A DNA stretch of 64,000 bases, taken from IMG/VR virus record IMGVR_UViG_3300044684_000278, positions 1 to 64,000 of that record; one strand, given 5' to 3'. Made by a program: the position numbers and the translations under genes. Positions 6-56,971 of this stretch are shown here, one piece after another (the first letter of the stretch is position 1; the number at the start of each line of letters is the position of its first letter). This DNA comes from a virus. The notes beneath the pieces are model-generated. The model saw only the letters and a program-made list of their open reading frames with translations, searched no databases and was not told the origin of the DNA.

Positions 6-3000
6 ATGAATAAAGTACTCAAAGGAGGCAAAGACAGTGCAGACATCCTGTTCTTCCTTTCCTCTATGAGAGACAGTTTAAAGGAACTCAGTGACCTGGG
101 TAACAAACTCCAGGAGCAGCAGGATAAACTGGGCAGGTTACAGACGGCAGCCCAGGAAAAACGTCAGCTCTCCTCACTCCAGGACCGGGTGGATTTCTTA
201 AACCAGGTACAGCAGGTGCTGATCGAGGATAAGAACAAGGTAATACCTGTGAACCCGAATGCTCCTGCACCGGAAGGTCAGGATGCCTACGTTACAGACG
301 TGGAGCTGGAGAGTGATCCAGATGCCCCAACCTACAAGGATAAGAAACCTAAGTTTGAGGAAGTGGGCTTCAACAAGACCTTCGGAAGGCACTACCTGGA
401 TGAGGAAGATAAAGAACTCAATACAGCTGATGGCTCTGACCGCTTCTTTGCTTTTACCGGCAAGCAGAACGTCATGGGCCAGGGCTATGAACTCTTAGTA
501 GTCACTGAGCACAATGATGAATTCGGGATCCGTCAATCGGACAAGAATCCGGATGACATCAAGCTGGTGGTGGTTAAAAAAGTAAGTGGAGAAGATGGTA
601 AGCCTGTTTATAAGTATGTTGGAGTGGATGGTAAGTTGCTTGATGCTCCTGATAAAGACAATATTGTCTACCGTAGTATGGCTAACGTTAATACTCTTAG
701 CGTTCAGCGTGTCCGTGATGATTATACCGTTCATGAGTCTACTACGGATGAAGACATCCAAAAGAAAATAGACGAGCACAAGGAGTACCAGAAAAACCTG
801 GTGGAACGCTCCAAGGAAGGTCCTGTCTATCTCAATGCTGTATCTGCCTCTCCTGGCGTGCAGCGTATTGAACGTACTCATGATGGTAAACCTGCAGAAG
901 CAGAAGTGGAAGGCCGTGTGGTGGAGGATGATCCGGACTGGACCAACCTGCACTCTGCCAACAACCCTGAAGCAGGTATCGGACTCCGTGTATCCACTGC
1001 AGACGGATCACTGGCACCTGGTGTGCTGGCTGGTCGTGTGGTGATGCAGGAGTATACCAATGATGAGGGCAGGAAGATCTGGGGAGATAAGGTGACCCGT
1101 GTGTTCAACCGTCTGCTCAACAAGGATGAAAAAGGAAAAGTGATTGAGGCCCTGGTGCGTCTGACTTCCCTTTTCAACCGGAAGAATTCCAAGGATCCAA
1201 GCATCCGTCTTACTGATGCTGAAGAGGCAGAGTACAACCTGATCTTCGGATACCTGAAGAACGTACTTCCTTGGGGCGGATGGAAAAACGGAGGTAACTC
1301 CCAACGCAGGAAGCTGTCCAATATGTTCCGTATTGACAGTGGTCTGAAACGGGGTGACTTCTCTATTCCATTCACAGAGCTGTCTATTCGTCAGAATGCA
1401 GATAAGCTCCTGGATGGTGTATATCACAATGTGAACAACAACACCCTTCAAAACAATGAGGAGTTCCGTGACATCCAGGTAAAAGATGGAAAGATCGTTC
1501 CCGGTAAATCCTACAAGACCTATGAAGAATACCTGCTGGGTAAAAGAGAAAATGGTGAGATGCCTCCGGTGTATACCTCCCTTCCAAGGGTGGATGCAGC
1601 ACGTCCTCAGCGTACCAACTCTTACCTGAACTGGGTGGATCCGTCCGTACAGTCTGTTAAGGAGCAGTCTCCTTACCAGCAGGGACAGATGACCCAGGAA
1701 AGGCATGATGAGATCACCAGCAAGATGGGTAAGCTTGAACGGATCGTAGCTGCAAAAGACACACTGAAGGACGAGTCCACAGAGGACCTGGCTAAAAAGC
1801 TGGAATATTTTGCCAAAGAAAATCCGGAGCTGGAAAATACTTTTGATAAAGATTTCCTGGAGCCTGCTGTACAGAAACTCGTGGAAGGCAAGACTGAAGA
1901 AGATATTCTCAAATCATTTGGCTCAGAAAATGAGTTCAACCGTGCTGTAGTTGCCCAGGCCCTGTCTGATTACATTGACAAGACACAAGCTCCGCAACTG
2001 GAGACACTGAAGCGTCAGTTGGAAAATGCTCCTAAGCCTAAGAAGCAGGAAGTAAGCCTGGATAACCCAGCTCCTGTAGCAGCCCCAGTTCAGCAAGGCC
2101 CTAAGAAGGCATCTGACCTGTTGGGCGGACTGGGTAAACCACAGTCTCAACAACAGCAACAGCAGGCTCCTGCCGCAAAACCAGGAAGTGCTTCTGCTTT
2201 ACTGGCCTCCAAACTGGGACAGCCACAGCAGACTGCTATTCCAAAACCATTGGAGCAGAAACCTGCTAATAAACAAATCCCTACAGTAGCGGACAGTGCC
2301 AAAGCCTCCCAGATGCTGGCAGGCAAATTAGGACTGCAGAACCAGGAAGCTGTTAAAACAGCAGCTCCGGTAGCAACTGCTTCTGAGAAGCATACAGATA
2401 TTCCGGCAGCCGTTGAAGCAGCCCAGCCTAAACTGGGTAAGCTAACCGCTACGGTATATACCAGCAAGGACCCGGCTTCCGGGGAGCTGACCAACCCGAT
2501 CACTGCTACCGTGGATATTCCGGATGGAAGACTGCAGGCAGGTAAGATGCTGTTGAAGCAGGCACTAATGGCTCAGATTCCTAATGAGGATGAGGATGTC
2601 CCATACCGTCTTTCCTTGGGTGAGGTAGAGCAGACCGAGGATTTTAAAGCCCTGGACAAGTTCATGAAAGAGAACCTGCCTCAGATCCCTGTTAAAAAAG
2701 TAGCAGAGCTGATCCATGGCAAAGCCTGGGGTATGTTCAAAAACGGAGCTATCTACATTTACAACAATGCAGAAATCGGTACCGGTTTCCACGAGGCTTT
2801 TGAGGCCGTGTGGGGCAGCTACCTAAGTGATAAAGAACAGCAGGACCTGGCTGAAGAATTCCGTGGCCGTGATGGTAAGTTCAAAAACCCCTTCACCCGT
2901 CTGACCAAGAACTATAAGGATGCCTCCCTGTATGATGTACGTGAGATGCTGGCAGAGGAATTCCGTAACTACATCCTGAACGGGCAGTTACCAGCAGAGG

Positions 3001-6000
3001 AAAAGACCCGTGGTTTCTTCCAGAGACTATGGGATTTCATCAAGCGTATCCTGGGACTGGCTCCTGAGCAGGCACAGGAGATGAACAGCAAGATCAATGC
3101 TGTGTTCAAGGCCATCAAAGCCGGTCAGTTCAAAGACCTGGATCCGATCCGGGAGTACTCACCTGTTCCTGAATACCGTGCCATTGGCCGGTTGACCCAG
3201 GAAGAGACAGCCCGTGCCATCCAGGGTCTGAACTACTACTTCTTCATGGAGTTGTACAAGAACGGAAACAACATTGATGCTCTTATAGACCGCTATGAAC
3301 CTAAGCTGTCCAACCAAATCCTTAATGACATCTTCAACAAAAGCCATGATGCCGTGGTGAAGAATGTCCAGATCCTGGGTGAGGGTATGCAGGACGAGCT
3401 CCGTCTTCGCAAAGAGGAATTATATGAGGAGTTCAAGAAGAATCTTTCCAGGTTCGGCCTTGACTTTGACGAGCATGATGACCTCATGGTGAAGGAACAG
3501 AACACTGTGAATGCATTGGGTATCCGTGACTCCATTTCCATAGATCCCAAGAAGATGTCTACTGTGAACGTGAAGCTCTTGTTAGCCTCACTTCCGCAGA
3601 CCCGCTATAACAGTGAAGGCAAGATCACACCTGTACGTGACCTGCAGATGAACCAGCCTATGCTGGTGGATCATGTGAAAGTGCATAACCTGCTCTTAAA
3701 TGAGTTAAGCAATATCGTTCCATCTTATGATGAGAACGGAAACCAGGTTGCTGCCCTGGATCAGATGTTCCAGAAGCTGGATCAGAAATACAAGTATCCG
3801 CAAACCGGAAACTATAAAGAAGGCTACAACTGGATCCAGAACCTGAAGGCCCGTCTGCGTTATGAGATGATGGATGGTACCAAATTCCCGGCAGAGGCCC
3901 TGACTGCGGATGACATCCGCCTGAGGATTGGTTTTATCAAAACCTTTACCAACGTAAAGACCATCCCGCAGAAGACGATAGTGGGAGAAGATGGATACAT
4001 CTATAACCTGAACCCGGTAGAGGGTACCAACATCGAGCGGGTACGGGATGAGTGGAGCAACAACCTGAAAAATGACCTGATCCAAAGGAGAGGTCAGAAA
4101 GGTATGGTGAAGCTGAACCCTGATGGTACCATGGAGATCAACCGTGATACCGACGAGTACAAGGATCTGATGAAGATGCTAGATCGTAAGAACAGCTTCT
4201 CCACAGAGGATGCTCAGCTGGCCCTCCGTAAACTGGGAATTACTTTTACAGGCACACCTGCACAGATGGATAAATACGGATCTGTTATCCGGGAAGATGC
4301 TATCCAGATCCTGGAGCAGCTCAAGGCAGGTTCCCTGAACTCTATTTCAGACATCTATGGATCCAATAAGATCGGTGGCCGTATCAACAGGCTGCTTTCC
4401 ATAGAAGCCGGGTTCAGCGGTGAGGATAATATCTTAAACTACATCAACGCCAATGGTGAGACCCAATACTCCGTGGGTATTCCATCCCTGTTCAGCAATA
4501 TGATCAACACGCTGAACACCGTGAAGACCCAGAAAGAGCTGGTACAGTCTGCACCGTGGCTGGGCACTATAGATGCTAAAACAGGTGAGGTAGTGCTTCA
4601 TCCATACCAGCAGAACTCAGAGCTTCTGAAAAAAGACGGGATACTCTTTGACAAAAAGGGCCGCAGAAGAGACGGGGCACGCCTGGAGTACCAGGTGATC
4701 TCCGGTGTGGGTACATCAGACTTTGAAGGCACTTCCACAGATGAACTGCAGTTCCCGGAACGGGTGGCCAACAAGATCCACTACCTGCTTCAGAATACTG
4801 TATACTCCAACATCAACTCTGATAAGAGCACCGAGTTCGGTATCTCTCTTCCAGGAAAGCTGATCGTTTCCAAGGGAGATGTGGCCAGCCTCTTATACTT
4901 TGATGGTAAAGAGGTGATCAACCACTATGTAAACCAGCTTACAGATGAAATGGCTGCTGCCGTATACAACAAAGCAAGGCCAAGCAACATCCAGTACTAT
5001 AAAGACCAGGTGGCCTCATTAGGGCACTTCAGAGACATTTTAGGGGCTGACCTGGTAGATAAGTTCAAACGTGAGGTAATAAGCCCTGAGAGCCGCTATA
5101 AAGGCCCACAGGCACACCTTAGATTCATTGAGGATAACCGTGCTGCCATTGACAAGGCTATCAAGGGTTACATGGAAAACAAGATTGACCAGACCGTTAA
5201 GTTCTTAAAGGACCTGGATCTGTTCCAAAAACCTGCCCTTGCCGGAAATGACCTGTACACCACGGACGCTATTGACAACGACATGCTGTCAAAGATCCTG
5301 GATACCAAGAGCACAGTGGCTATCAAGCATGATGACGGGGAGATCACAGAGCGTGTGGGTCTGACAGAGAATGACCTGAAAACACTGGCAGGTGTCCTGG
5401 CACTCAACGAGGAGATCCTGGTTACAGAACAGCATAAGTTAATCTACGGTCACCCTGCCTTCTACAAAGACCTTCCAAAGCGTGCCAATGGTGCTACTTC
5501 AACCAAGGAGCCTATGGTGGATGATCCGGATGTGATCAAGTGGATGGACAATAACATGGCCCGTAATGATGGCAAGCAGCGTTCCTCCGAGACACACCAG
5601 ACCTTCAAAGTCGTATCCTTCAAGGACCAGGATGTGGTAAGCCACTATTACCAGGATATAGCTGAGGGTATGTTTGCCTCCATGATCAAGACAGAGTCCA
5701 GCAAGACGGCTGCAGAGAAGAAGATCGGTGCCAAATTCACGGATGATGGCAAGCTCAAAGGCTTCATCACAGATAAGAAAGGCGGATACACTGGTCTGAT
5801 CAAGGCTTACCTGGAGCTCAATGAAGCGGATGCCATGGCCTGGGGTATGCCAGACATGGTTCGGGACATGCTGTTCCTTACAGGAAAGCTATCCAAGGAA
5901 CAACAAAAGCAGTTTGATTACGAGATTGCCTATGAGAAACTGGCCCTGGCTAAAAAGGGTGAGGCCAGGTATTCCCGTGAGGAATTAGAGGCTGCCAAAA

Positions 6001-9000
6001 AGATCGTAGAAAAAGGAAACCCTGGCTACGTGTTCCAGGTACTGAAACCACAGTACTTCGGTTACGCTGTGGATGGGGATACCCTGCACCCTGTGTTCCT
6101 GAAACACGCGGTTCAGCCTAAGTTCTTCCGCCATGTAGAAGGCACCCAGTATGAGGATCTATACAAAGCCCTGAAGAAAAGCCAGGTGGACATCATCGGT
6201 TTTGAGTCCGGGGAGAAAGTAGGTAACGTGATGGGCAAGAACGGCAAGTTCACCAGCATCTATAATGATAAAGGTACCGTGAACGTGACCAAGGCAGGTA
6301 ACCAGTACAGTCTTCCAGGAGATCTTCCAGTCCAACAATTATACACCAAGTTCTATGGTATCCAGGTGGAGACCAATGCCAAACCTAAAACAGAGGTGGT
6401 GCGTGGTACCCAGGTGACCAAACTGATCATGGTAAACTACTTTGAGAACGGTAAACCGGTTACCGAGCAGATTGGAAAGAAAATCCAGGAGTATAATAAT
6501 ACCCTGAAGACCATGATGCAGCTGGGTAAACAGAACCTGATCAAGGAGCTGGGACTTCGCCAGGATGAACAGGGTAATTACCACACAGAGGATCTGACCA
6601 AACTGGTGAAGACCCTGAGACGTGAGGCAGAAAGCCGTGATCTCCCGGATAACATGATCCAGGGTATTGACACCCTGAGCAATGAGGACGGATCCACTTC
6701 CCTGAAATACAGGTTTGATACTTTGATCAACCGGGAAAAGATTGACAACATCCTGAACTCCATTGTGGATTCCCGTGTGATCTCTGAGAAGATCCATGGT
6801 AAGGCATCCGTGCAGGTAGCTTCTACCCTGTACGAGAGTCAGCCAAGGAGCTTCATGTACCTGAAAGATGGGGTGTATACCCAGATGACCCCTGAGAACA
6901 TGGGCTCACTGACTGCAGAGGAACGCAAGACCATCAAGATGAAGTCATCTGACCTGAAGTTCTATGCAGACCAGAATGGAAAGATCCAGAGCATGGAAGT
7001 ATATCTTACCTGGCCATTCAAGGATTTCTCTCCTGAGCAGCTGGGCCTGAAACTGGAGAACGGTATTTACAAGCTCTCCGGAGACAGCAAGGTGGACAGC
7101 AGGTTACTAAAGTCACTGGGATTCCGTATCCCTACCCAGGCCATGAACTCCATTGAGTCCATCCAGATCAAGGGATTCACCCCACAGAACAACGGGGACA
7201 TGATCGTGGTGCCATCAGAGATCGTTGGTAAATCCGGTTCCGACTTTGATATTGATAAACTCAATCTCTATTTGCCTAACTACTTCTTCAACAGTGCCAC
7301 TAAGTCACTGGAGTTTGCAGAGTGGAAGGGCTCTATTGAGAATACCAAAAAATACATTGCGGATCTCTTTGACAAGGGACACCTGCTTCCTGCAGATGCT
7401 GCCAAGGAGCTGGACCGCTATATTGCGGAAGAGAATGACCTGCTGGGTACTGATCCTGAGGATAAGCTGTTAAAGGCCATCTTCCAGGGCCTCTTCTCCG
7501 AGGAGCGTCTGACCTCAGAGTTCATGGATGACTTCTCCAAACAGAAGAACTACCAGTCCCTGAGAGATGAAGTTGTTGATTCCCTTACCAAGAAAGCCCT
7601 GCAGAACCACTTCATGAACCTGATGCATGACCTGGTGCAGGATCCGTTCAACTACCGTCAGCTGGTCGTGCCCAACGGTGTGGATACCATCAAGCCTCTG
7701 GCAGATGAGATCAATGCCCTGAAGATCCAGGCTGGCACCAAGTCAAAAGAAGACGAGAAGAGCTTTACTTTCCTAAGAAGTTTTGTGGGTAACAACCAGA
7801 TCCGTGAACGGTACTTAACGGCCAAACGAATGGTGGGCATTGCTGCCCTGCACTCTACTTTCCACTCTATGGCACAAGTATCAGGTCTGAAGATCAACCG
7901 TGACTTTGCAACCAAAGGCATCTATTACATTGCCGGGAAGAACGAAGAGCACAGGCTTGTAGATATTAAACTCACACACATCCCGGCCAACGAGGATGGT
8001 ACCTTCAACATCGGTCACCGTACTGATGCCAGTGGTGCCTGGGTGAGTGAGCTGATCTCGGAGGAACTATCCGGGTTCGTGGATGGTGCCAAAGATCCAT
8101 TCGTGTTTGACCTGAACTTCTCTATGAACACGGCTGCCACCTGGTTCTACCTGCAACACGTAGGGGTACCGGTGGACGAGATTGCCTACTTCTTTGGTCA
8201 GCCCGTGCTGGATCAGTACTTTGAGGAGTTTGCCAAGAACCGTGCAGGATTCAAGAAGATCAATGATGAAAGCCTGACCAGGGAAATGCTCTTCTACAAA
8301 GTGGTTAGTCCATACTTTGAAAAGATCACGGGCCGTAACATCATGGCTGAAATTGCAGCCGTGGAGGATGATCCTTTTGGGAAATCTGCCCTTAAGAAAT
8401 CCCTTGCTGTGGAGATGAACACCATTGCCAATCAGTTCTCCAAGTTCAATAAAACAGACTTAAGAGACCAAATTGCCCAGGGCAAACAGGCAGATCCAAA
8501 GATGCAGATTGCCATCCTGATGAATTACCTGGAGTATAACGCACAAGCACAACTGCTGGGTAACTTCATCAATGCCATCTCTTATGACAACAAGAAGACC
8601 AAGTCTTTACAGGAGAATATGATGCAGGTGGCACGCTGGGAGAAATCCAAGCAGGAAGGCTTCGTGGCCAATCCTGATGCCATCATGGATCATACGTTCC
8701 TGGGTGAGATGAAAAAACAGAAAGAAGACATCTTCAAGATGTTCAAGAACTTCTTCATCACTTTGAGTCCATCTGTTCAGAAAGCCTTTGAGCCTATGGA
8801 GAACAAGATCAATGATCCTGACTTCTTTGCATCCAAGGATAACACGGTGGATCTGCTCAACCGCTACCAGAACTTTGTGATCTCTTACCTGCTGCATACT
8901 ACTCCGTTCCAGGATGCAGATGAGCAGGAAGTGACCCTGAACAAGCTTTACAGGGATTACTTCCTTGGAGACAACTCCATGGCCAAGATCCTGCAGAAGT

Positions 9001-9926
9001 ATAAGAACTCTTCGGATCCTTACGTGTCCGGAAGCCTTGCCATACAGGAACTGCTCCCGGTAATGAGTGAGGATACTACCCGTCCAGATAATATCCGTCT
9101 GTTCCGCAACAAGCTGGACACCTACCAGATCAACAACATCGTTGAAGACCTGGATAACCTGAAAGCTTATGCCATGCAGGTGGCGGACAGTGACCTGGAA
9201 CACTTCGTGGACAACCTGGCCAAGTTTACCCTGGTACAAAGTGGTATGCAGGGAAGCCGTCTGGATTACCGCAAGATCCTTTCCACACAGGTATATTCTT
9301 CCCTGGTGAAGAACATCATAGATGCTTTTGAAGCTTCCGGAAAAGAACTGGATCCTAAGAGGGTATGGAAAGCTTTCCACCAGAACAACTGGAGCAACAA
9401 CTCAGTAGTACCTAAGGTACCTAACTGGCTGCGTCCTAAAGAAGGCAAGCTTTTAATTAAAGACGGATCTTCACTGCTGGTGAATGACTACCTGATGAAG
9501 TACGTGAAGAAACCAGGCATCTCCCGTCAACAGCTTAATGAGATGCGTAGAAATAAAACCATGCAGAATGCCTTTGAGCCGATCCTCTATGAAAAGAGAA
9601 ATCAGCTGGCAGATGGCAAGTGGGTTTATGCTCCTGTAAACAAACTGGGTGACGGTACCCGCTTTACAGAAATCTATGATGAGGATAAAGCATCCATCCT
9701 GCAGAAGAACGGAGATGTGGGAGACGCCGGTGGTGGATTCACAGGTGGCTATATCAGTGTGATGGAATTGTTGGCAAATAAGACAGCCAATAACGTAAAT
9801 GTGGAGGATAATTCGTATAATAGTACAACACCTAAAACAGCCTCCGAGCTCCTGCTCCAATCAGAAAAGCAGGCTGTCGTGCAACAACTAAAAGACAACG
9901 GAACCATAGAACAAAACTGCTCATGA
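6..9926 (+). CDS. Giant virion-packaged RNA polymerase (crAss-like, phi14:2 gp66-type), probably 5'-truncated by the window
   Basis: FRIPTQ...SGSDFDIDKL (DFDID at 7242-7256), GFVDGAKDP and FESGEKVG motifs; zincin-like FHEAFE...EMLAEEF segment; frame is open to the window edge. Confidence 0.9.
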   Translation: MNKVLKGGKDSADILFFLSSMRDSLKELSDLGNKLQEQQDKLGRLQTAAQEKRQLSSLQDRVDFLNQVQQVLIEDKNKVIPVNPNAPAPEGQDAYVTDVELESDPDAPTYKDKKPKFEEVGFNKTFGRHYLDEEDKELNTADGSDRFFAFTGKQNVMGQGYELLVVTEHNDEFGIRQSDKNPDDIKLVVVKKVSGEDGKPVYKYVGVDGKLLDAPDKDNIVYRSMANVNTLSVQRVRDDYTVHESTTDEDIQKKIDEHKEYQKNLVERSKEGPVYLNAVSASPGVQRIERTHDGKPAEAEVEGRVVEDDPDWTNLHSANNPEAGIGLRVSTADGSLAPGVLAGRVVMQEYTNDEGRKIWGDKVTRVFNRLLNKDEKGKVIEALVRLTSLFNRKNSKDPSIRLTDAEEAEYNLIFGYLKNVLPWGGWKNGGNSQRRKLSNMFRIDSGLKRGDFSIPFTELSIRQNADKLLDGVYHNVNNNTLQNNEEFRDIQVKDGKIVPGKSYKTYEEYLLGKRENGEMPPVYTSLPRVDAARPQRTNSYLNWVDPSVQSVKEQSPYQQGQMTQERHDEITSKMGKLERIVAAKDTLKDESTEDLAKKLEYFAKENPELENTFDKDFLEPAVQKLVEGKTEEDILKSFGSENEFNRAVVAQALSDYIDKTQAPQLETLKRQLENAPKPKKQEVSLDNPAPVAAPVQQGPKKASDLLGGLGKPQSQQQQQQAPAAKPGSASALLASKLGQPQQTAIPKPLEQKPANKQIPTVADSAKASQMLAGKLGLQNQEAVKTAAPVATASEKHTDIPAAVEAAQPKLGKLTATVYTSKDPASGELTNPITATVDIPDGRLQAGKMLLKQALMAQIPNEDEDVPYRLSLGEVEQTEDFKALDKFMKENLPQIPVKKVAELIHGKAWGMFKNGAIYIYNNAEIGTGFHEAFEAVWGSYLSDKEQQDLAEEFRGRDGKFKNPFTRLTKNYKDASLYDVREMLAEEFRNYILNGQLPAEEKTRGFFQRLWDFIKRILGLAPEQAQEMNSKINAVFKAIKAGQFKDLDPIREYSPVPEYRAIGRLTQEETARAIQGLNYYFFMELYKNGNNIDALIDRYEPKLSNQILNDIFNKSHDAVVKNVQILGEGMQDELRLRKEELYEEFKKNLSRFGLDFDEHDDLMVKEQNTVNALGIRDSISIDPKKMSTVNVKLLLASLPQTRYNSEGKITPVRDLQMNQPMLVDHVKVHNLLLNELSNIVPSYDENGNQVAALDQMFQKLDQKYKYPQTGNYKEGYNWIQNLKARLRYEMMDGTKFPAEALTADDIRLRIGFIKTFTNVKTIPQKTIVGEDGYIYNLNPVEGTNIERVRDEWSNNLKNDLIQRRGQKGMVKLNPDGTMEINRDTDEYKDLMKMLDRKNSFSTEDAQLALRKLGITFTGTPAQMDKYGSVIREDAIQILEQLKAGSLNSISDIYGSNKIGGRINRLLSIEAGFSGEDNILNYINANGETQYSVGIPSLFSNMINTLNTVKTQKELVQSAPWLGTIDAKTGEVVLHPYQQNSELLKKDGILFDKKGRRRDGARLEYQVISGVGTSDFEGTSTDELQFPERVANKIHYLLQNTVYSNINSDKSTEFGISLPGKLIVSKGDVASLLYFDGKEVINHYVNQLTDEMAAAVYNKARPSNIQYYKDQVASLGHFRDILGADLVDKFKREVISPESRYKGPQAHLRFIEDNRAAIDKAIKGYMENKIDQTVKFLKDLDLFQKPALAGNDLYTTDAIDNDMLSKILDTKSTVAIKHDDGEITERVGLTENDLKTLAGVLALNEEILVTEQHKLIYGHPAFYKDLPKRANGATSTKEPMVDDPDVIKWMDNNMARNDGKQRSSETHQTFKVVSFKDQDVVSHYYQDIAEGMFASMIKTESSKTAAEKKIGAKFTDDGKLKGFITDKKGGYTGLIKAYLELNEADAMAWGMPDMVRDMLFLTGKLSKEQQKQFDYEIAYEKLALAKKGEARYSREELEAAKKIVEKGNPGYVFQVLKPQYFGYAVDGDTLHPVFLKHAVQPKFFRHVEGTQYEDLYKALKKSQVDIIGFESGEKVGNVMGKNGKFTSIYNDKGTVNVTKAGNQYSLPGDLPVQQLYTKFYGIQVETNAKPKTEVVRGTQVTKLIMVNYFENGKPVTEQIGKKIQEYNNTLKTMMQLGKQNLIKELGLRQDEQGNYHTEDLTKLVKTLRREAESRDLPDNMIQGIDTLSNEDGSTSLKYRFDTLINREKIDNILNSIVDSRVISEKIHGKASVQVASTLYESQPRSFMYLKDGVYTQMTPENMGSLTAEERKTIKMKSSDLKFYADQNGKIQSMEVYLTWPFKDFSPEQLGLKLENGIYKLSGDSKVDSRLLKSLGFRIPTQAMNSIESIQIKGFTPQNNGDMIVVPSEIVGKSGSDFDIDKLNLYLPNYFFNSATKSLEFAEWKGSIENTKKYIADLFDKGHLLPADAAKELDRYIAEENDLLGTDPEDKLLKAIFQGLFSEERLTSEFMDDFSKQKNYQSLRDEVVDSLTKKALQNHFMNLMHDLVQDPFNYRQLVVPNGVDTIKPLADEINALKIQAGTKSKEDEKSFTFLRSFVGNNQIRERYLTAKRMVGIAALHSTFHSMAQVSGLKINRDFATKGIYYIAGKNEEHRLVDIKLTHIPANEDGTFNIGHRTDASGAWVSELISEELSGFVDGAKDPFVFDLNFSMNTAATWFYLQHVGVPVDEIAYFFGQPVLDQYFEEFAKNRAGFKKINDESLTREMLFYKVVSPYFEKITGRNIMAEIAAVEDDPFGKSALKKSLAVEMNTIANQFSKFNKTDLRDQIAQGKQADPKMQIAILMNYLEYNAQAQLLGNFINAISYDNKKTKSLQENMMQVARWEKSKQEGFVANPDAIMDHTFLGEMKKQKEDIFKMFKNFFITLSPSVQKAFEPMENKINDPDFFASKDNTVDLLNRYQNFVISYLLHTTPFQDADEQEVTLNKLYRDYFLGDNSMAKILQKYKNSSDPYVSGSLAIQELLPVMSEDTTRPDNIRLFRNKLDTYQINNIVEDLDNLKAYAMQVADSDLEHFVDNLAKFTLVQSGMQGSRLDYRKILSTQVYSSLVKNIIDAFEASGKELDPKRVWKAFHQNNWSNNSVVPKVPNWLRPKEGKLLIKDGSSLLVNDYLMKYVKKPGISRQQLNEMRRNKTMQNAFEPILYEKRNQLADGKWVYAPVNKLGDGTRFTEIYDEDKASILQKNGDVGDAGGGFTGGYISVMELLANKTANNVNVEDNSYNSTTPKTASELLLQSEKQAVVQQLKDNGTIEQNCS

Positions 9927-36098: not shown

Positions 36099-36107
36099 GG
36101 GTTATGA

Positions 36108-47591: not shown

Positions 47592-48092
47592 TTACAACAC
47601 AGCTTCTCTCTGCTGTGAGGTTGTGGCCATGGTCTTCAACGCATCCATTGCGGAGAGATTGGCCAGCTCTTTCTGGGCAGCCACAGCTTCCCGTATTTCC
47701 TCAGTGTTGGTATGCGGGATGAATTCATCCACTGCATTGGGATCCTGGGTAAAGAATGTTTCCCTGAAAATAGGCTGATCTCCATAGAGACACTGCACCC
47801 CTGTCTTCCCGGCCATTTTGTAATGACGTTCCGGTTTGGTAGGATCAAATGGTTCCAGAGATTCTTTTACAATAATCCGTCCTGGGATTTCATCACCGGC
47901 ATTAAATCCTGCCTGTTTGAGTTCATCCACTTTACCCTTGATCAGGGCGGATCGTTTAGCTAACTTGAACCAGCCTCCTTCTGTGATCTGGTTCACGACC
48001 TGTTCTACACGGATGTAGCCATACTCCGGGTTGTTCTGTGATAAGCCGATAACGGCTCCCGTTTGATCTGCTGTTACTGTTACTGTGTACAT
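47592..48092 (-). CDS. Hypothetical protein (possible OB-fold)
   Basis: 166-aa ORF bounded by terminator-like hairpins. Confidence 0.7.
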   Translation of the reverse strand: MYTVTVTADQTGAVIGLSQNNPEYGYIRVEQVVNQITEGGWFKLAKRSALIKGKVDELKQAGFNAGDEIPGRIIVKESLEPFDPTKPERHYKMAGKTGVQCLYGDQPIFRETFFTQDPNAVDEFIPHTNTEEIREAVAAQKELANLSAMDALKTMATTSQQREAVL

Positions 48093-48126
48093 AGATCTGA
48101 TTTTTGATTTGATAAATGATTGGAAA

Positions 48127-48159
48127 TAAAAAAGCCCGGACTGTCACAGCCCAGGCTTC
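48127..48159 (-). terminator. Intrinsic terminator
   Basis: AAGCCCGG...CCAGGCTT stem with poly-T on the minus strand. Confidence 0.6.
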
Positions 48160-48186
48160 AACTATATGATTTGAAAGGTAATATGC

Positions 48187-48453
48187 TTAATCTTCGGAGA
48201 TCTCTATATCCAGATCCGGGTCGGAGAGCTTCTCTTCATCCGGGATCAGGGTGAGATCCTCAATAACCGGTTCTTCCGGCAGGTAGTAGTCTTCCACTGG
48301 TGGCATCTTGTTCAGCACAGACCCAAACCATGGGTCTTCCACTGCATCACCAGTATAATAAGCATTCAGATAGTCCAGGTCTTCATCGGACATATCCAGG
48401 TATTGTTCAAGAGAGATTTCTATAGTTCTTCCAGAGGGTAGCTGATAGATCAT
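48187..48453 (-). CDS. Small acidic protein
   Basis: D/E-rich 88-aa ORF. Confidence 0.7.
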   Translation of the reverse strand: MIYQLPSGRTIEISLEQYLDMSDEDLDYLNAYYTGDAVEDPWFGSVLNKMPPVEDYYLPEEPVIEDLTLIPDEEKLSDPDLDIEISED

Positions 48454-48552
48454 GGTTCATATGTTTTAGAGTTACCTAAATGTAACTTCTACAACATGAT
48501 CCGTCAATACCTCTTACTCTCTAATATGGATAATAGAGCTATAAGTGTATAA

Positions 48553-48729
48553 TTAGTGTACGGCTTCCCGTTTTTTGGAGTTCTTGGAGTACAATTTCTT
48601 CTTCCAGAACTCATTGACCTTATTGATGTGCTGCTGCTTTTCAGCCAGCTTCTGTCTCAAAACTGTGTTTTCATTCTTCAGTTTTGTGTTCTCATGCAGG
48701 ACCTCTTTACAGATGATTGCTTTTATCAT
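48553..48729 (-). CDS. 58-aa coiled-coil protein (below the ORF-track cutoff)
   Basis: Hand translation MIKAIICKEVLHENTKLKNENTVLRQKLAEKQQHINKVNEFWKKK... Confidence 0.55.
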   Translation of the reverse strand: MIKAIICKEVLHENTKLKNENTVLRQKLAEKQQHINKVNEFWKKKLYSKNSKKREAVH

Positions 48730-48792
48730 AGTCTACGCATTAAAAAAGGTATGAGCCGGGCCCATACCTCTGTTATAAATAATAGTTTAGTT

Positions 48793-49185
48793 TCAAAATC
48801 TGATTTCCATGGAGTCCTTCCCGATGTTAACGGATTTAGCCCCGTCTCCAATCTCAACTGATACTCCGTTAATGATGAATTTATACGTGCTGGTATTGTT
48901 CATGACTCCAACCACACTGGATCCGGTAGTGGATGTCCTGTTGGAGTCTGGCTTCATCTGCTCCCGGACCTTTGCTAAACTGTCTGTGGGAGAGATGGCC
49001 CCGGATGGCCTCTTGCCTTTTACAGAGGGGAACTGCAGTCCTTCCTCCCTAAACCGGTTCTTATAGTTGTGTACACTGGATACAGCAATATGGAAGTGCT
49101 GGGCAATGTCCTCAGGATATACACCCTGTACAACCATTGCTTTCATTTCTTCTACCTGATCAGTGGATAGTCTTTTGTTTGCCAT
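48793..49185 (-). CDS. HTH DNA-binding protein divergent from the integrase
   Basis: PEDIAQHFHIAVSSVHNY helix-turn-helix. Confidence 0.75.
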   Translation of the reverse strand: MANKRLSTDQVEEMKAMVVQGVYPEDIAQHFHIAVSSVHNYKNRFREEGLQFPSVKGKRPSGAISPTDSLAKVREQMKPDSNRTSTTGSSVVGVMNNTSTYKFIINGVSVEIGDGAKSVNIGKDSMEIRF

Positions 49186-49223
49186 GTTCTTCTTTTTGTA
49201 GATACGGAATCCTTGTTTCCTGT

Positions 49224-49390
49224 TGGTTAAGATTACAAAATTAGGCTGAATTATCCAAATATATAGTCAGGATACTGGATAACAGCTTGTTAATATCTAC
49301 AAAATGTGAGCCAAACTCATCCATTATTCTGTAGATTTTTTCTTTAGGGAAAACCACTTAACTTGGACTACAAGTAATACATTTGTAGAA
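49224..49390. promoter_or_regulatory. Divergent Bacteroidota-type promoters with TCTACA boxes
   Basis: Minus TAATTTTG (about 49236-49243) and TATATTTG (about 49256-49263); plus TACATTTG (about 49378-49385). Confidence 0.55.
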
Positions 49391-49448
49391 ATTCAGGCTT
49401 CCAGGATATAACGTATCCCAGAAACCCTTTACTTTGTCCAGCAGAATT

Positions 49449-49660
49449 CAGTGAGTAATACGTGAGTAGGTCACTTTGGTGAGTAAGAATATCAGCTTCC
49501 AGCAACGGTTTGAAGATGCGGGTTCGAGTCCCGTCCGGTCCGCTTTATAGTTCTTAAGTAGCTGATAATCAAGATATTCTTAGTCCCAAAAGTGAGTCTT
49601 TTGAGTGGTTCCAGTGAGTAATCCGTGAGTAACTCCGGATTGATGAAAAAATCTACTCAC
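49449..49660 (+). mobile_element. attP site: tRNA-Asp 3'-half core flanked by integrase arm-type repeats
   Basis: Core GCGGGTTCGAGTCCCGTCCGGTCCGC at 49518-49543; GTGAGTA repeats at 49451, 49462, 49479, 49614, 49625 and inverted at 49654. Confidence 0.85.
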
Positions 49661-49703
49661 TGAATCCGCTGAAACCCAAGCCAGGATTCAATCACATAAG
49701 ACT

Positions 49704-50819
49704 ATGAATATCTTGTTTTATTTAAAGGACTCAAAGAACAAAGCCGGTGAGAAAGCTCTCTATGTCCGGCTCTCCCAAGGCACCCAAATTACAGAATTAT
49801 CCCTGGGTGTCCGCATGAAACCCTCCCAGTTTAAGTCTACATCTTCCAAGCAGTACATGAATGCTGTTCAAGCCAAGCTCCTGGAGATAGAGGGAGAACT
49901 TCTTCTACAAAGTACCTGTACCCCACAAATGATCAAGCATGAGTACTTAAGCCGTACTACGCAGGTATATAACCTCCTTGATGTGTGGGATCAGTACCTG
50001 GTGTATTACCAAAAGAACAAGCTCCAGACCGGAGAGGTCAAGGAGGTGTCCTATGATAAGTTCGTCCTTTCCCAGGATTACATGAAAAAGTACCTCAGAG
50101 AGCTGAAACTTACGGACATCCCTTTGAACATGATCCATTCTGATTTCATCATGGAGTTTTTCAATTTTCTCAGAAGGAGTGTATCCCATAATCATGCTCA
50201 GAAGATGGTCAGCAAGTTCAAGACAGTGATCATCTGGGCCCATTCCAAGGGCTGGATCACCAAGACCCCCTTTACCCAGGTCAAGATCCGGCCAAACAAA
50301 ACCAAGGTGGTCTATCTGGTGGACAGTGAGCTGAAGAGGCTGCACAAGACCAAGTACCATCCCCGGCTGGAGAAGGTGCGTGATGCTTTTCTTTTTCAGT
50401 GTTATACAGGGCTTGCCTACATAGACATGAGCCAGCTTACCCAGGAAATGATTGAGGATAACAAGATCATGATTGACCGTCAGAAGACGGGTGAGCCCTG
50501 CTACATCCCCTTAATGAAGCCAGCCAAGGAAATACTGGAAAAGTACAGGTATAAGCTCCCGGTAAATTCCAACCAGAAAATGAATGCTTACTTAAAAGAA
50601 GTAGGCACCCTGGCAAAAATCAACAAAGAGCTGCATACTCACGTTGGCAGGCATACTTTTGCCACCATTGCCCTAAATAACGGAATGCCCGTGACCACTT
50701 TACAGGTCATACTGGGGCACTCTGACATCAGGACCACAATGAAGTATGCCAAGTTGATCCGGAATACGATAGATCAGGACATGGTCAAGCTGGAAGATAA
50801 GTTATCTGCTATAGTATAA
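49704..50819 (+). CDS. int: Tyrosine integrase, Bacteroidota type
   Basis: Arm-binding N-terminus (ILFYLK..LYVRL), SAM-like domain, TGLAYID, RQKT, HVGRHTFAT, LGH, T..Y. Confidence 0.93.
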   Translation: MNILFYLKDSKNKAGEKALYVRLSQGTQITELSLGVRMKPSQFKSTSSKQYMNAVQAKLLEIEGELLLQSTCTPQMIKHEYLSRTTQVYNLLDVWDQYLVYYQKNKLQTGEVKEVSYDKFVLSQDYMKKYLRELKLTDIPLNMIHSDFIMEFFNFLRRSVSHNHAQKMVSKFKTVIIWAHSKGWITKTPFTQVKIRPNKTKVVYLVDSELKRLHKTKYHPRLEKVRDAFLFQCYTGLAYIDMSQLTQEMIEDNKIMIDRQKTGEPCYIPLMKPAKEILEKYRYKLPVNSNQKMNAYLKEVGTLAKINKELHTHVGRHTFATIALNNGMPVTTLQVILGHSDIRTTMKYAKLIRNTIDQDMVKLEDKLSAIV

Positions 50820-50820
50820 A

Positions 50821-50852
50821 GAAAGGAGGATTAAGTTCCTCCTTTTTGTTTT
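50821..50852. terminator. Terminator between convergent genes
   Basis: AAAGGAGGA...TCCTCCTTT followed by T-run. Confidence 0.7.
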
Positions 50853-51079
50853 TGTTCCAGGGTATTCAGGGCTTCCATGATCTGGTCAATGACCGGTGTC
50901 TCACGTTTAAGAAAAGTAAAAGCTTTAACATCCCACATAGGAGATCCGTCACCAGCTTTATAACTCCCAGTATCTTCAATTACTTTGCCCCTGAAGTAGT
51001 TTCCTCTTATTTCTTGAACCCTTACCTTAGTTCCAAGTTTACCTACTACTATATCACCGGGCTTAAATGGCTCATTCAT
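50831..51079 (-). CDS. SH3-like protein with shared tail
   Basis: FKPGDIV...PVIDQIMEALNTLEQKQ. Confidence 0.7.
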   Translation of the reverse strand: MNEPFKPGDIVVGKLGTKVRVQEIRGNYFRGKVIEDTGSYKAGDGSPMWDVKAFTFLKRETPVIDQIMEALNTLEQKQKGGT

Positions 51080-51330
51080 TCCTCTGCCTTTCCCCACTCT
51101 TTATTGAGCTGGTCAAACTGTTCTTTGGTAAACGCATAGTGATTGGTAAGGCCCCGTTCCCTCTTCCCGTTGATATAATCACACAGGCTCTTGGCCGTGT
51201 ATTCATCCGTGCGGAACTGCCAGTTTATGGCTGCTGCTTCTATTTCTTCCGGGAGGTTGTGTACTATAGTGAAGCTGCTTCCGTCTGATAGCCGGATCTC
51301 CGTTTCAAAAAATTTCATATCATCCATCAT
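51076..51330 (-). CDS. Hypothetical protein
   Basis: ORF coupled to the downstream gene. Confidence 0.6.
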   Translation of the reverse strand: MMDDMKFFETEIRLSDGSSFTIVHNLPEEIEAAAINWQFRTDEYTAKSLCDYINGKRERGLTNHYAFTKEQFDQLNKEWGKAEE

Positions 51331-51388
51331 ATTGTAATTGTTTATAATATTTTGTATATTAAACTAACCACCTTATCCTCATTGCTTT

Positions 51389-51919
51389 ATGTGCAACTGT
51401 AACAAATTCCTGGTAACACCCGTGAGCTGCAAAAGAGCAGTCTACACAGACTATGTTGCCACCTGCTCTGACTCACCCGGTGCCTTCCTAAAAGAGTCAG
51501 CCTGTCCGCCCTGTACAGACGGGCCGGACATCAATACCCTGGAAATAGACTATCTGAACGCTCAGTGGACCTATCAGATGAGTGCTAACGATACTGGCAG
51601 AACTGCACTGGACTTTTATAACGGGTGGTTTTTACCTTACAAGGCACAACTGGGATTTACAGATAATACGATTTTCCAGATCTATGTAACCTCAGGCAGT
51701 TTCAGCCAACCTTTGGATGTTACTCAATACAGTCAGGGACCAGTTTCTTTTACTGACTCCAGCGGGAACACTTCTTATACGCTCCAGGGATCTGCCGCAC
51801 CAGGCACTGGTATGGCCGTTAATATAAACTCTGGCTGGGGAAACTATTCTATTCTGGCAGTAGGTAATGATGGAAAAACAATCATTTTTAACAATATCAT
51901 AGCCATCTGGGGCTCTTAA
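51389..51919 (+). CDS. MCNCN-type Cys-leader protein, paralog 1
   Basis: Cys-rich N-terminus, S/T/G-rich beta body. Confidence 0.75.
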   Translation: MCNCNKFLVTPVSCKRAVYTDYVATCSDSPGAFLKESACPPCTDGPDINTLEIDYLNAQWTYQMSANDTGRTALDFYNGWFLPYKAQLGFTDNTIFQIYVTSGSFSQPLDVTQYSQGPVSFTDSSGNTSYTLQGSAAPGTGMAVNINSGWGNYSILAVGNDGKTIIFNNIIAIWGS

Positions 51920-51930
51920 TCCATATTACC

Positions 51931-56955: not shown

Positions 56956-56971
56956 AGTGATTTGATTTTTG

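What the first reader, a model, noticed from the sequence alone, without database searches (positions are those of the whole stretch)
48793..50819. Complete integration module (HTH regulator, attP, integrase) in a virion-RNAP crAss-like phage
Seen: a 26-bp core equal to the T arm plus acceptor strand of a tRNA-Asp-like 3' end (49518-49543), with no 5' half. It is flanked by a 19/20 direct repeat (CAGTGAGTAATACGTGAGTA at 49449 and CAGTGAGTAATCCGTGAGTA at 49612), further GTGAGT copies with an 11-bp period, and a perfect inverted 10-mer (TAAGAATATC at 49484, GATATTCTTA at 49573). An intact tyrosine integrase follows, and an HTH gene is divergent. Phage genes continue on both sides, so this is attP rather than attL/attR. 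Known: cultured crAss-like phages are generally described as lytic or carrier-state. A non-Arg residue in the TGLxY box is seen in active Bacteroides integrases such as IntDOT. Inference: this is a temperate crAss-like phage that integrates in host tRNA-Asp. That raises the question of how an induced prophage starts early transcription without an injected vRNAP.
Basis: partly seen in the sequence, partly recalled or inferred. Interest (0 to 1): 0.8.

Follow-up and report, generated by a model that had tools for sequence, protein, structure and literature searches.

The report
Integration cassette in soil crAss-like phage
A 136-kb soil phage related to the crAss phages carries what looks like a working cassette for inserting itself into its host's tRNA-Asp gene, a lifestyle not usually ascribed to this group, although no inserted copy has yet been seen.

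Summary
Window 49518-49543 is a single-copy 26-mer identical to the last 26 nt of tRNA-Asp(GTC) genes, with no 5' half. Clustered GTGAGTA repeats flank it. It lies 160 nt upstream of an intact Bacteroidota-type tyrosine integrase and is divergent from a small HTH gene.

The genome is a complete, circularly assembled 136,320-bp phage. Its TerL, portal and MCP are crAss-like, and a 3306-aa protein is homologous to the phi14:2 virion RNA polymerase.

Decisive new evidence comes from relatives (MCP 75-80% identical where the record holds one). These carry the same cassette at the same syntenic spot. Three integrase lineages are only 34-38% identical, yet all keep the identical 26-mer while the flanks have diverged. 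A fourth lineage instead carries the 3' 26 nt of tRNA-Ser(TGA). Integrase, HTH gene and core co-occur strictly: 1 of 50 relatives searched holds all three, and 49 hold none. Between two strains the integrase differs at 17 nucleotides but only 1 residue.

So this is very probably a functional attP-int module, and the likely hosts are Chitinophagales. Lysogeny itself is not shown. Every copy found is the attP form. No related capsid gene turned up in 3 x 401 Bacteroidota genomes, and no repressor was recognised. The module is classical; finding it in this phage group is new.

The parts
48793..49185 (-). Small HTH DNA-binding protein (130 aa), part of the cassette. Its role is open: recombination directionality factor or repressor.
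   Evidence: The ORF is. HTH hits are weak (HTH_23, 21.3 bits, below cut-off). The model shows a 3-helix HTH at residues 8-47, a disordered linker and a small C-terminal beta domain, at pLDDT 62. Atlas neighbours are small Bacteroidota GerE/HTH_7 proteins. Homologs (29-47% identity) follow the integrase in all related cassettes. The profile hits only G001 among 50 relatives.
49186..49703 (.). Non-coding attP region of 518 bp, holding the arms and the core.
   Evidence: No ORF of 60 aa or more and no Rfam family lies here. Only 1 difference separates the two strains, against 17 in the 1116-nt integrase gene.
49449..49468 (+). P-arm copy of the 20-nt direct repeat. It holds two GTGAGTA motifs 11 bp apart, which are candidate arm-type integrase sites.
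49479..49485 (+). Third GTGAGTA motif of the P arm.
49471..49493 (+). Left arm of the 23-nt inverted repeat that brackets the core.
   Evidence: pair I1, 87% complementary
49518..49543 (+). attP core, identical to the last 26 nt of tRNA-Asp(GTC): T stem, T loop and 3' acceptor strand.
   Evidence: The core is invariant in 7 of 7 aligned attP versions from three integrase lineages.
49523..49529 (+). T-loop heptamer TTCGAGT between the T-stem halves GCGGG and CCCGT. This is the predicted strand-exchange (overlap) region.
   Evidence: Inference from the sequence and from recalled knowledge of tRNA-targeting integrases. Not tested.
49573..49595 (+). Right arm of the 23-nt inverted repeat.
49612..49631 (+). 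P'-arm copy of the 20-nt direct repeat (19/20), holding two GTGAGTA motifs 11 bp apart.
49654..49660 (-). Inverted GTGAGTA motif in the P' arm.
49704..50819 (+). Tyrosine integrase (371 aa) of the Bacteroidota type, with arm-binding N domain, SAM-like core-binding domain and catalytic domain.
   Evidence: Pfam gives PF00589 at 63.3 bits and PF13102 at 42.8 bits. PF17293 Arm-DNA-bind_5 scores 21.7 bits, just under its 22.6 cut-off. PHROGs places it in phrog_1 integrase at 1.7e-40. The catalytic residues are conserved. Between strains there are 17 nt differences and 1 aa difference.
50820..50847 (+). Terminator-like stem-loop that reads on both strands, closing the integrase gene.
6..9926 (+). 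Context: a 3306-aa protein homologous to the virion RNA polymerase gp66 of crAss-like phage phi14:2.
   Evidence: phmmer against PDB chain 6VR4_A gives E 4.6e-20, aligning query 1931-2743 to chain 965-1675. Packaging into virions is inferred, not tested.

Best explanation
The region is a genuine site-specific integration cassette (attP, int and a small HTH protein) belonging to a complete 136-kb crAss-like phage from soil.

The integrase is a heterobivalent tyrosine recombinase of the Bacteroidota type. The proposed mechanism has four parts.
1. The catalytic and core-binding domains recognise the T-stem inverted repeat of the 26-bp core and exchange strands in or near the 7-nt T loop.
2. The N-terminal arm-binding domain binds the GTGAGTA repeats in the P and P' arms.
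3. Recombination with the tRNA-Asp(GTC) gene of the host, most likely a member of Chitinophagales, would insert the phage. The phage-borne 26-mer would restore the 3' end of the tRNA, and int would lie directly downstream of the tRNA.
4. The HTH protein travels with int and most likely acts as the directionality (excision) factor or as a regulator of the cassette.

Shown here: the anatomy, the identity of the core to tRNA-Asp, the conservation and co-occurrence of the parts across related phages, and purifying selection on int.

Inferred: the crossover position, the arm-site function, the role of the HTH protein, the host, and the claim that integration really happens.
For: 1. The core is a unique 26-mer in the genome. 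It equals the 3' end of tRNA-Asp(GTC) in 30 of 31 bacterial loci checked.
2. It occurs exactly in 14 of 281 Bacteroidota genomes drawn across the phylum. Thirteen of those 14 carry handles first issued in the Chitinophagales search, out of 24 such genomes in the draw.
3. The same orphan 26-mer lies 140 nt upstream of an integrase in related phage contigs: L243 (G001), L234, L247, L254, L238 and L250, plus L257 from a metagenome. The arrangement is always core, int, HTH, then homologs of window genes 48187-48453, 46518-46937 and 40722-41858.
4. These integrases form three lineages, 34-38% identical between and 77% within. In the alignment of 7 attP versions the 26 core columns are the only long invariant run.
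5. A fourth lineage (G1241, 109 kb, MCP 75% identical) has the same cassette layout, including a roughly 20-nt direct repeat on each side. Its core is the 3' 26 nt of tRNA-Ser(TGA). That core is an orphan in the phage, lies within tRNA-Ser in 6 of 6 bacterial loci, and is exact in 20 of 301 Bacteroidota genomes.
6. Co-occurrence is strict. Among 50 MCP relatives searched (8 of them at least 90% complete), only G001 has the core, only G001 has PF00589, and only G001 has the HTH profile.
7. The integrase is intact. K261, H313, R316, H339 and Y348 are invariant in 24 family members. The Ala at the canonical Arg-I position is the family norm, and R259 is invariant.
8. Between two strains of this phage, int differs at 17 nt but only 1 residue. 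The 518-bp attP region differs at 1 nt, and that nucleotide is the base just 5' of the core. It changes to the base found in the tRNA.
9. Six of the 12 GTGAGTA copies in 64 kb lie within 210 bp around the core.
10. The five phage integrases fall in one subtree with 4 unnamed proteins (SH-aLRT 86).
Against: - No integrated form was seen anywhere. Every copy found is attP: 8 IMG/VR loci and 2 metagenome loci.
- None of the 20 full tRNA-Asp loci in IMG/VR is followed by such an integrase. None of 121 bacterial tRNA-Asp loci is followed by a P'-arm-like sequence.
- Logan contigs of two strains run through attP without a joint. Contigs do drop rare forms, so this is weak.
- The MCP was not found in 401 Chitinophagales, 401 Sphingobacteriales or 401 phylum-wide Bacteroidota genomes. 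These sets overlap in part.
- No integrase closer than 40% identity exists outside this phage among the proteins searched.
- No CI/S24 repressor, antirepressor or excisionase family was recognised among 120 early and middle ORFs.
- Seven of 8 complete relatives lack the cassette. One relative (L251) has cleanly deleted int and most of the HTH gene. The cassette is therefore dispensable for propagation.
- The canonical Arg-I is absent and the arm-binding domain scores just below Pfam's cut-off.
Confidence: 0.75

Rival explanations
1. The recombinase and its site work, but not for chromosomal lysogeny. They might resolve replication dimers or circularise the genome, as Cre/loxP does in phage P1, or support a plasmid-like carrier state. 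They might also insert the phage into tRNA genes carried by other replicons.
For: No lysogen, attL or attR was found. No repressor was recognised. A weak ParB_N-like hit lies at 59402-60190, below its cut-off. The prototypic crAssphage is reported as a non-integrating phage-plasmid (PMC10983915, passages read). The same 26-mer lies within tRNA-Asp genes on 20 of the 29 IMG/VR contigs that hold it, many in phage tRNA arrays and three on records classed as provirus.
Against: A dimer-resolution site has no need to match a host tRNA. Here three integrase lineages keep the exact tRNA-Asp 3' end while everything around it diverged, and a fourth switched to the tRNA-Ser 3' end. The arm-repeat architecture and the arm-binding N domain are those of integrative recombinases. 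Seven of 8 complete relatives replicate without the cassette.
Confidence: 0.1
2. The cassette is an inactive relic, picked up from a host integrative element or left over from a temperate ancestor, and the phage is now strictly lytic.
For: Most relatives lack it. One relative shows a fresh deletion of int and most of the HTH gene. No lysogens were found. The canonical Arg-I is missing.
Against: The ORFs are intact. Int shows 17 nucleotide changes but only 1 residue change between strains, and attP shows 1 change in 518 bp. The core is invariant across lineages that are 34-38% identical. The missing Arg-I is family-wide and is accompanied by an invariant R259.
Confidence: 0.1
3. The cassette is a small independent mobile element, such as a satellite or integrative element, that inserted into the phage genome and is not part of the phage.
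For: The cassette is patchy among relatives. In the window, its attP-int part is inverted relative to the layout in the other lineages.
Against: The whole genome holds only one core copy, so there are no flanking att sites. The cassette sits at the same syntenic position, next to the same phage genes, in all lineages. The five integrases of lineages A-C that were put in the tree fall in one subtree with 4 unnamed proteins.
Confidence: 0.04

Closest known systems
tRNA-targeting integration modules of temperate phages and integrative elements, such as phage HP1 integrase (PDB 1AIH) and NBU1/CTnDOT-type Bacteroides integrases. The targets of HP1 and NBU1 are recalled, not checked here.
   Same: A tyrosine integrase lies next to an attP whose core copies the 3' part of a host tRNA gene, so that insertion restores the tRNA. 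Repeated arm sites flank the core. HP1 integrase is the best solved-structure match (E 9.5e-09), with the H-x-x-R, H and Y motifs aligned. The domain set (Arm-DNA-bind_5, SAM_5, catalytic) and the named homologs are from Bacteroidota.
   Different: The carrier is a 136-kb crAss-like phage with a virion-RNAP homolog. The integrase is at most 40% identical to anything outside this phage. No partner excisionase or repressor family was recognised. No integrated state has been observed.
IntDOT of CTnDOT (Bacteroides conjugative transposon integrase)
   Same: It belongs to the tyrosine recombinase family with an arm-binding N domain (PMC2817482, introduction passage read). In the family aligned here, the canonical Arg-I position is Ala in at least 90% of members.
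   Different: IntDOT tolerates heterology in its overlap region and uses several chromosomal sites (PMC3809561, passage read). The phage cores here are exact copies of one tRNA 3' end. No direct alignment with IntDOT was made here, and the paper on IntDOT's catalytic residues could not be opened.
Epsilon crAss-like phages (crAssE-Sib) and two incomplete Parabacteroides prophages
   Same: These are crAss-like phages with a virion RNAP for which a temperate lifestyle has been proposed (PMC11054128, passages read).
   Different: That proposal rests on repressor and antirepressor genes. The authors state that their search for an integrase failed. The present case is the reverse: an integrase and attP are present, but no repressor was recognised.
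Carjivirus communis (prototypic crAssphage) as a phage-plasmid
   Same: A crAss-group phage with a non-lytic persistence strategy (PMC10983915, passages read).
   Different: It is reported to lack integration genes and not to integrate. The present phage has an integration cassette, and only a weak, sub-threshold ParB_N hit.
Cellulophaga phage phi14:2 (gp66 virion RNA polymerase, PDB 6VR4)
   Same: The 3306-aa protein at window 6-9926 is homologous to gp66 (E 4.6e-20). The TerL tblastn hits are crAss-like phages, including Cellulophaga and Flavobacterium phages.
   Different: TerL identity to described crAss-like phages is only about 23-25%. The vRNAP homolog is half as long again. No lysogeny genes are reported for cultured crAss-like phages (PMC10354031, passage read).

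Membership tests
Tyrosine recombinase / phage integrase (Pfam PF00589), Bacteroidota type | Catalytic domain with nucleophilic Tyr, the H-x-x-R box, a second His and a beta-hairpin Lys | tested here: met
   PF00589 scores 63.3 bits against a 27.1 cut-off. K261, H313, R316, H339 and Y348 are invariant in 24 aligned family members and align with HP1 integrase.
Tyrosine recombinase / phage integrase (Pfam PF00589), Bacteroidota type | Canonical Arg-I in box I (TGxR) | tested here: not met
   A238 stands opposite the Arg of HP1's 'TGAR'. This is the family norm: Ala in at least 90% of 24 sequences, with an invariant R259 two residues before K261. Whether R259 substitutes is inference.
Tyrosine recombinase / phage integrase (Pfam PF00589), Bacteroidota type | N-terminal arm-type DNA-binding domain and SAM-like core-binding domain | tested here: inconclusive
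   PF13102 scores 42.8 bits, above its cut-off. PF17293 Arm-DNA-bind_5 scores 21.7 bits, just under its 22.6 cut-off. Most homologs carry PF17293 in the precomputed annotation.
Tyrosine recombinase / phage integrase (Pfam PF00589), Bacteroidota type | Catalyses site-specific recombination | not testable with these tools
   Needs an expression and recombination assay.
Phage attP that targets a tRNA gene | Core identical to the 3' part of a host tRNA gene, without the 5' part | tested here: met
Phage attP that targets a tRNA gene | Single copy in a complete phage genome, next to the integrase gene | tested here: met
   There is one copy in 136,320 bp, 160 nt upstream of int. The genome is rated complete with terminal overlap, and a second assembly has another start point.
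Phage attP that targets a tRNA gene | Repeated arm-type sites on both sides of the core | tested here: met
   A 19/20 direct repeat and 6 clustered GTGAGTA motifs are present. Analogous repeats occur in lineages B, C and D. Binding by Int was not tested.
Phage attP that targets a tRNA gene | Matching attL/attR junctions or prophages in host genomes | tested here: not met
   None was found. The sampling is partial (one genome per species, contigs only).
Temperate phage (lysogeny module) | Repressor or maintenance function and an excision factor | tested here: inconclusive
   No repressor, antirepressor or Xis family was found among 120 ORFs. The HTH protein is an unassigned candidate.
crAss-like phages (Crassvirales in the broad sense) | TerL, portal and MCP related to those of crAss-like phages | tested here: met
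   PHROG hits exist for TerL, portal and MCP. TerL tblastn hit 134 phage records; those listed or tallied by name are crAss-like or phages of Bacteroidota (uncultured 'cr' phages, Bacteroides, Flavobacterium, Cellulophaga, Azobacteroides), at 23-25% identity.
crAss-like phages (Crassvirales in the broad sense) | Giant virion RNA polymerase of the gp66 type | tested here: met
   PDB 6VR4_A matches at E 4.6e-20 over about 800 residues. Packaging was not tested.
crAss-like phages (Crassvirales in the broad sense) | Placement inside the ICTV order by marker phylogeny | not tested
   No TerL, portal or MCP tree with reference families was built. At about 25% TerL identity the phage may lie outside the named families.

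The most novel reading that the evidence does not exclude
A widespread clade of soil and freshwater crAss-like phages that depend on an injected virion RNA polymerase includes truly temperate members. These would integrate into tRNA-Asp or tRNA-Ser of Chitinophagales. An induced prophage would then have to restart its early programme without injected polymerase, for instance from host-type promoters, with the int-linked HTH protein as the switch. That would make the long-debated lifestyle of crAss-like phages, and the logic of vRNAP-dependent transcription, directly testable.
Probability: 0.45. Interest if true: 0.8.

Novelty: new member of a known kind. Interest (0 to 1): 0.6.

Why it matters
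CrAss-like phages are described in the papers I could read as virulent, as carrier-state phages or as phage-plasmids:
- 'incapable of lysogeny' (PMC8375218, abstract in the listing);
- no lysogeny genes in 25 isolates (PMC10354031);
- an integrase search failed in the epsilon group (PMC11054128).

My full-text searches found no paper describing a crAss-like phage with an integrase and a tRNA attP.

Here the cassette is conserved, under selection and diversified across at least five integrase lineages and two tRNA targets, all within one environmental crAss-like clade. This gives three things: concrete attP and attB sequences for an assay, a predicted host order (Chitinophagales) for isolation attempts, and a natural test case for how a phage with injected RNA polymerase could leave the prophage state.

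The module itself is textbook, and integration has not been observed, so the interest is moderate to high rather than exceptional.

Tried and rejected
- Megablast of 48500-51200 against GenBank phages gave no match.
- The right-flank gene 52770-54023 has no homolog in 5 relatives, so the right boundary of the variable region could not be set by synteny.
- Integrase search in IMG/VR with the window protein found only a twin assembly and one unrelated 28% hit. The related cassettes were found only through whole-genome comparison and by scanning for the core.
- Logan contigs of 4 runs (at most 2 samples) were laid on 47500-52000. The 136-kb contigs span attP, with no joint or loose end at the core. 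The two loose ends at 50570 and 50604 belong to an unrelated 1.6-kb contig matching 35 nt. Contigs cannot show rare junctions.
- The metagenome scan with the lineage-B integrase returned 80 loci. Only L256 (the same 97-kb contig as L234) and L257 are close, and both are attP forms.
- The MCP search in genomes holding orphan tRNA-Asp cores (L066, L101, L112) found no match, so those cores belong to other elements.
- The HTH protein was scanned against Pfam and PHROGs, using five homologs. Only sub-threshold HTH, terminase-small and regulator hits came back. The structure model has pLDDT 62, too low for a fold search.
- The sigma-70 promoter scan and the recalled Bacteroidota -7 motif TAnnTTTG gave matches not above chance (2 against 5.8 expected; 4 against 2.35 expected). 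No promoter claim is made.
- IntDOT catalytic-residue literature: the two open papers read do not discuss it, and the key paper is not held.
- Reading the orphan core as a decayed phage tRNA gene was rejected. It co-occurs strictly with int, and lineage D carries the 3' end of a different tRNA in the same place.
Full report
OBSERVATION

The 26-mer GCGGGTTCGAGTCCCGTCCGGTCCGC lies at 49518-49543.
- It is unique in the window even with 3 mismatches allowed, against 0 matches in 100 shuffles.
- It is unique in the whole genome with 2 mismatches allowed.
- ARAGORN finds no tRNA there; the only tRNA in the window is at 56971-57042. Rfam finds nothing in 49100-49800.
- The 20-nt direct repeat (49449 and 49612, 19/20) and the inverted repeat are confirmed. 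The inverted repeat is really 23 nt at 87%, 49471-49493 / 49573-49595.
- GTGAGTA occurs 12 times in the 64-kb window, and 6 of these lie in 49451-49660.
- The integrase ORF (49704-50819) and the divergent HTH ORF (48793-49185) are intact.

THE GENOME

The window is bases 1-64000 of a 136,320-bp virus record rated 100% complete, with a 127-bp terminal repeat.
- A second record of 136,295 bp holds the same integrase at a different offset.
- Logan contigs of 136,223 and 136,148 nt cover the region in two strains.
- The sequence therefore assembles as a circle. That a 127-bp overlap is typical of an assembler word length is recalled, not tested.

Evidence that the phage is crAss-like:
- TerL, portal and MCP match PHROG families.
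- TerL tblastn hit 134 phage records. Those listed or tallied by name are crAss-like or phages of Bacteroidota, at about 23-25% identity.
- The 3306-aa protein at 6-9926 is homologous to the phi14:2 virion RNA polymerase, PDB 6VR4, at E 4.6e-20.

'CrAss-like with a vRNAP homolog' therefore holds. Placement inside the ICTV order was not tested.

The MCP has at least 598 relatives in IMG/VR, and the best 80 are 67-87% identical, so the clade is large. The run records that hold the phage are soil and rhizosphere metagenomes. There are 6 rows from 4 studies, and two rows may be the source sample.

THE CORE IS A tRNA-Asp 3' END

- ARAGORN placed tRNA-Asp(GTC) over it in 30 of 31 loci examined. In Bacteroidota the gene ends at the last base of the core.
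- Across 137 occurrences in these loci, identity to the window never extends more than 1 nt upstream or 2 nt downstream.
- In an even draw of 281 Bacteroidota genomes, 14 hold the exact core.
- Thirteen of those 14 carry handles first issued in the search of the order of G054. There are 24 such genomes in the draw. G054 is titled Niabella defluvii, order Chitinophagales.
- Among the rest, the counts are 0 of 4 in the Sphingobacteriales range and 1 of 253 others.
- Reading order membership from handle numbers is my inference.
- Some Gammaproteobacteria also carry the 26-mer. However, the integrase family and the phage group point to Bacteroidota.

THE PROTEINS

The integrase has the Phage_integrase and SAM_5 domains. 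It also has an Arm-DNA-bind_5 match just below cut-off.
- Its nearest relatives outside this phage are at most 40% identical. Where they are named, they come from Bacteroidota.
- In an alignment of 24 family members, R259, K261, H313, R316, H317, H339 and Y348 are invariant.
- The canonical Arg-I position, opposite HP1's TGAR, is Ala in at least 90% of members. The 'missing' arginine is therefore a family trait, not a defect.
- That IntDOT shares this trait is recalled. I could not open the relevant paper.

The HTH protein has only sub-threshold HTH matches.
- The model is of modest confidence. It shows an N-terminal three-helix HTH, a disordered linker and a small beta domain.
- Its Atlas neighbours are small Bacteroidota GerE/HTH_7 proteins.

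COMPARATIVE EVIDENCE (the main new result)

A tblastn of 175 ORFs of this genome against two complete relatives gave a clear contrast.
- G004 lacks the cassette.
- G001 (120,708 bp, MCP 80% identical) has an integrase (34% identical) and an HTH homolog (29% identical).
- In G001 these lie next to the homologs of window genes 48187-48453, 46518-46937 and the helicase 40722-41858.
- G001 carries the identical 26-mer 140 nt upstream of its integrase.

Scanning IMG/VR for the 26-mer gave 29 loci.
- Twenty are full tRNA-Asp genes, in phage tRNA arrays or at provirus ends.
- Nine have no tRNA over the core.
- Eight of those nine show the same synteny: core, int, HTH, then the 48187 homolog. The ninth (L233) lies in a tRNA array and was not resolved.
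- One of the eight (L234) lies in a record with an MCP 80% identical.
- A metagenome contig (L257) adds another attP form.

The integrases form lineages:
- A: this phage.
- B: G001/L234, L247/L254 and L257.
- C: L238 and L250.
- Identity is 34-38% between lineages and 77% within them.

In the alignment of seven attP versions, the 26 core columns are invariant while the flanks have diverged beyond easy alignment.

Two further lineages were found.
- Lineage D (L336/L337/L344) lies in a 109-kb record with an MCP 75% identical and has the same gene order.
- Lineage D has a roughly 20-nt direct repeat on both sides of an orphan 26-mer.
- That 26-mer is the 3' end of tRNA-Ser(TGA) in 6 of 6 Bacteroidota loci. 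It is exact in 20 of 301 genomes.
- Lineage E (L358/L360) has the same downstream synteny but is cut off before the core.

In a quick tree of 123 integrases, the five sequences of lineages A-C fall in one 9-row subtree (SH-aLRT 86). The other four rows are unnamed proteins, and two of them correspond to lineage E.

Co-occurrence is strict. I searched 50 MCP-relative records, the longer ones among the 80 loci, of which 8 are at least 90% complete. Only G001 has the core, only G001 has PF00589, and only G001 has the HTH profile.

In the window, the attP-int unit is inverted relative to the HTH gene when compared with the other lineages. The internal order is kept, with the core 140-160 nt upstream of int.

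SELECTION

- The twin strain (L244, matching the variant contig of run X3) differs from the window at 17 nt of int but only 1 residue (K284Q). It differs at 1 nt of the HTH gene with no residue change.
- It differs at 1 nt in the 518-bp attP region.
- That single change is at 49517, the base just 5' of the core. It goes from T to C, which is the base found in tRNA-Asp. The identity to the tRNA thus varies at its 5' edge. It runs from 26 to 31 nt among the lineages, while the 3' edge is fixed.
- The low divergence of attP could also reflect mosaic recombination, so I treat it as suggestive only.

TESTS FOR INTEGRATION (all negative)

- No joint or loose end at the core appears in Logan contigs of two strains.
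- Every close copy in IMG/VR and in the metagenome contigs is the attP form.
- No full tRNA-Asp locus in IMG/VR is followed by such an integrase. None of 121 bacterial tRNA-Asp loci is followed by a P'-arm-like sequence.
- The MCP was not found in 401 Chitinophagales, 401 Sphingobacteriales or 401 phylum-wide genomes. These sets overlap in part. The same query did ring in virus records, so the method works.
- Pfam recognised no repressor, antirepressor or excisionase among 120 early and middle ORFs.
- One relative (L251) has a clean 1.49-kb deletion of int and most of the HTH gene, yet keeps attP.

MECHANISM

The most likely reading is a classical heterobivalent integrase system.
- The T stem (GCGGG / CCCGT) would provide inverted core-type sites around the 7-nt T loop, where strands are exchanged. 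This is inferred, and the general rule for tRNA-targeting integrases is recalled.
- The GTGAGTA repeats would be arm-type sites for the N domain.
- After integration the phage 26-mer would complete the tRNA, and int would lie just downstream of it.
- The HTH protein, which always travels with int, is the best candidate for the directionality factor or a local regulator.

A strictly lytic cycle is plainly possible without the cassette, since 7 of 8 complete relatives lack it. The cassette is therefore an accessory lifestyle option within the clade.

Motif scans gave nothing above chance.

LITERATURE

Seven full-text searches found no description of a crAss-like phage with an integrase and a tRNA attP.

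Passages read:
- no lysogeny genes in 25 isolates (PMC10354031);
- the crAssphage does not integrate, and Crassvirales lysogeny is rare (PMC10983915);
- epsilon crAss-like phages have a repressor and antirepressors, but the integrase search failed, and two incomplete Parabacteroides prophages are reported (PMC11054128);
- Yutin et al. 2021 mention possible crAss-like prophages once and integrases never (PMC7886860);
- the 2018 taxonomy preprint mentions neither.

Supplements were not opened, and subscription papers are not covered.

VERDICT

The attP-int reading is strongly supported by conservation, co-occurrence and selection. Temperate behaviour is plausible but unproven. The module is of a known kind; its carrier is new.

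Noticed in passing
L251:2001-2523 compared with L247:2001-4026 (IMG/VR relatives): L251 is about 95% identical to L247 but has a clean 1,494-bp deletion. The deletion removes the integrase and most of the HTH gene and keeps the attP core and arms. It is a natural int-minus derivative.
   Followed up: yes
L344:2776-2801 (record G1241, 109,118 bp): A related crAss-like phage has the same cassette layout, but its orphan core is the 3' 26 nt of tRNA-Ser(TGA). A roughly 20-nt direct repeat flanks it.
   Followed up: yes
window 49517: There is a T/C difference between two strains exactly at the base 5' of the core. The C variant extends identity to tRNA-Asp by one base. It is the only difference in the 518-bp intergenic region.
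   Followed up: partly
window 48092-48126 and 51045-51112: The variant strain (run X3, 136,148-nt contig) replaces 33 nt with 690 nt at the first site and 66 nt with 578 nt at the second. These are small indel cassettes on both sides of the integration module.
   Followed up: no
window 52770-55146 and 34347-37697: There are two pairs of a bpMoxR-type AAA ATPase (54007-55146 and 36108-37697) next to a large unassigned protein (417 and 583 aa). The Pfam family is named for MoxR-vWA-beta-propeller ternary systems.
   Followed up: no
window 14787-15242; L238:430-846; L250:426-869: A cREC_REC (cyclic-phosphate processing receiver) domain protein is present. In lineage-C relatives its homolog lies directly upstream of attP.
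   Followed up: no
window 56971-57042 (-): ARAGORN calls a tRNA with anticodon TGA (Ser) that is only 72 nt long, too short for the long variable arm that I recall for bacterial tRNA-Ser. Its identity is doubtful.
   Followed up: no
L066, L101, L112 (bacterial genome loci): These are orphan tRNA-Asp 3' ends without the 5' half in bacterial genomes (a Niabella sp. and two others). They are probably att junctions of other elements at tRNA-Asp. The phage MCP is absent from these genomes.
   Followed up: partly
L227-L255 (IMG/VR): The identical 26-mer lies within full tRNA-Asp genes on 20 of the 29 viral contigs that hold it. Many sit in large phage tRNA arrays and three on records classed as provirus.
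   Followed up: partly
window 26092-26538, 59402-60190 and 31364-32014: Other hits: a SegE-like GIY-YIG homing endonuclease (99 bits), a weak ParB_N-like hit (21.9 bits, below cut-off), and a DnaA C-terminal HTH protein.
   Followed up: no
genome ends (1-127 and 136194-136320): The 'direct terminal repeat' is exactly 127 bp, and other assemblies of the same phage start elsewhere. It may be an assembly overlap of a circular contig rather than the physical ends of the genome.
   Followed up: partly
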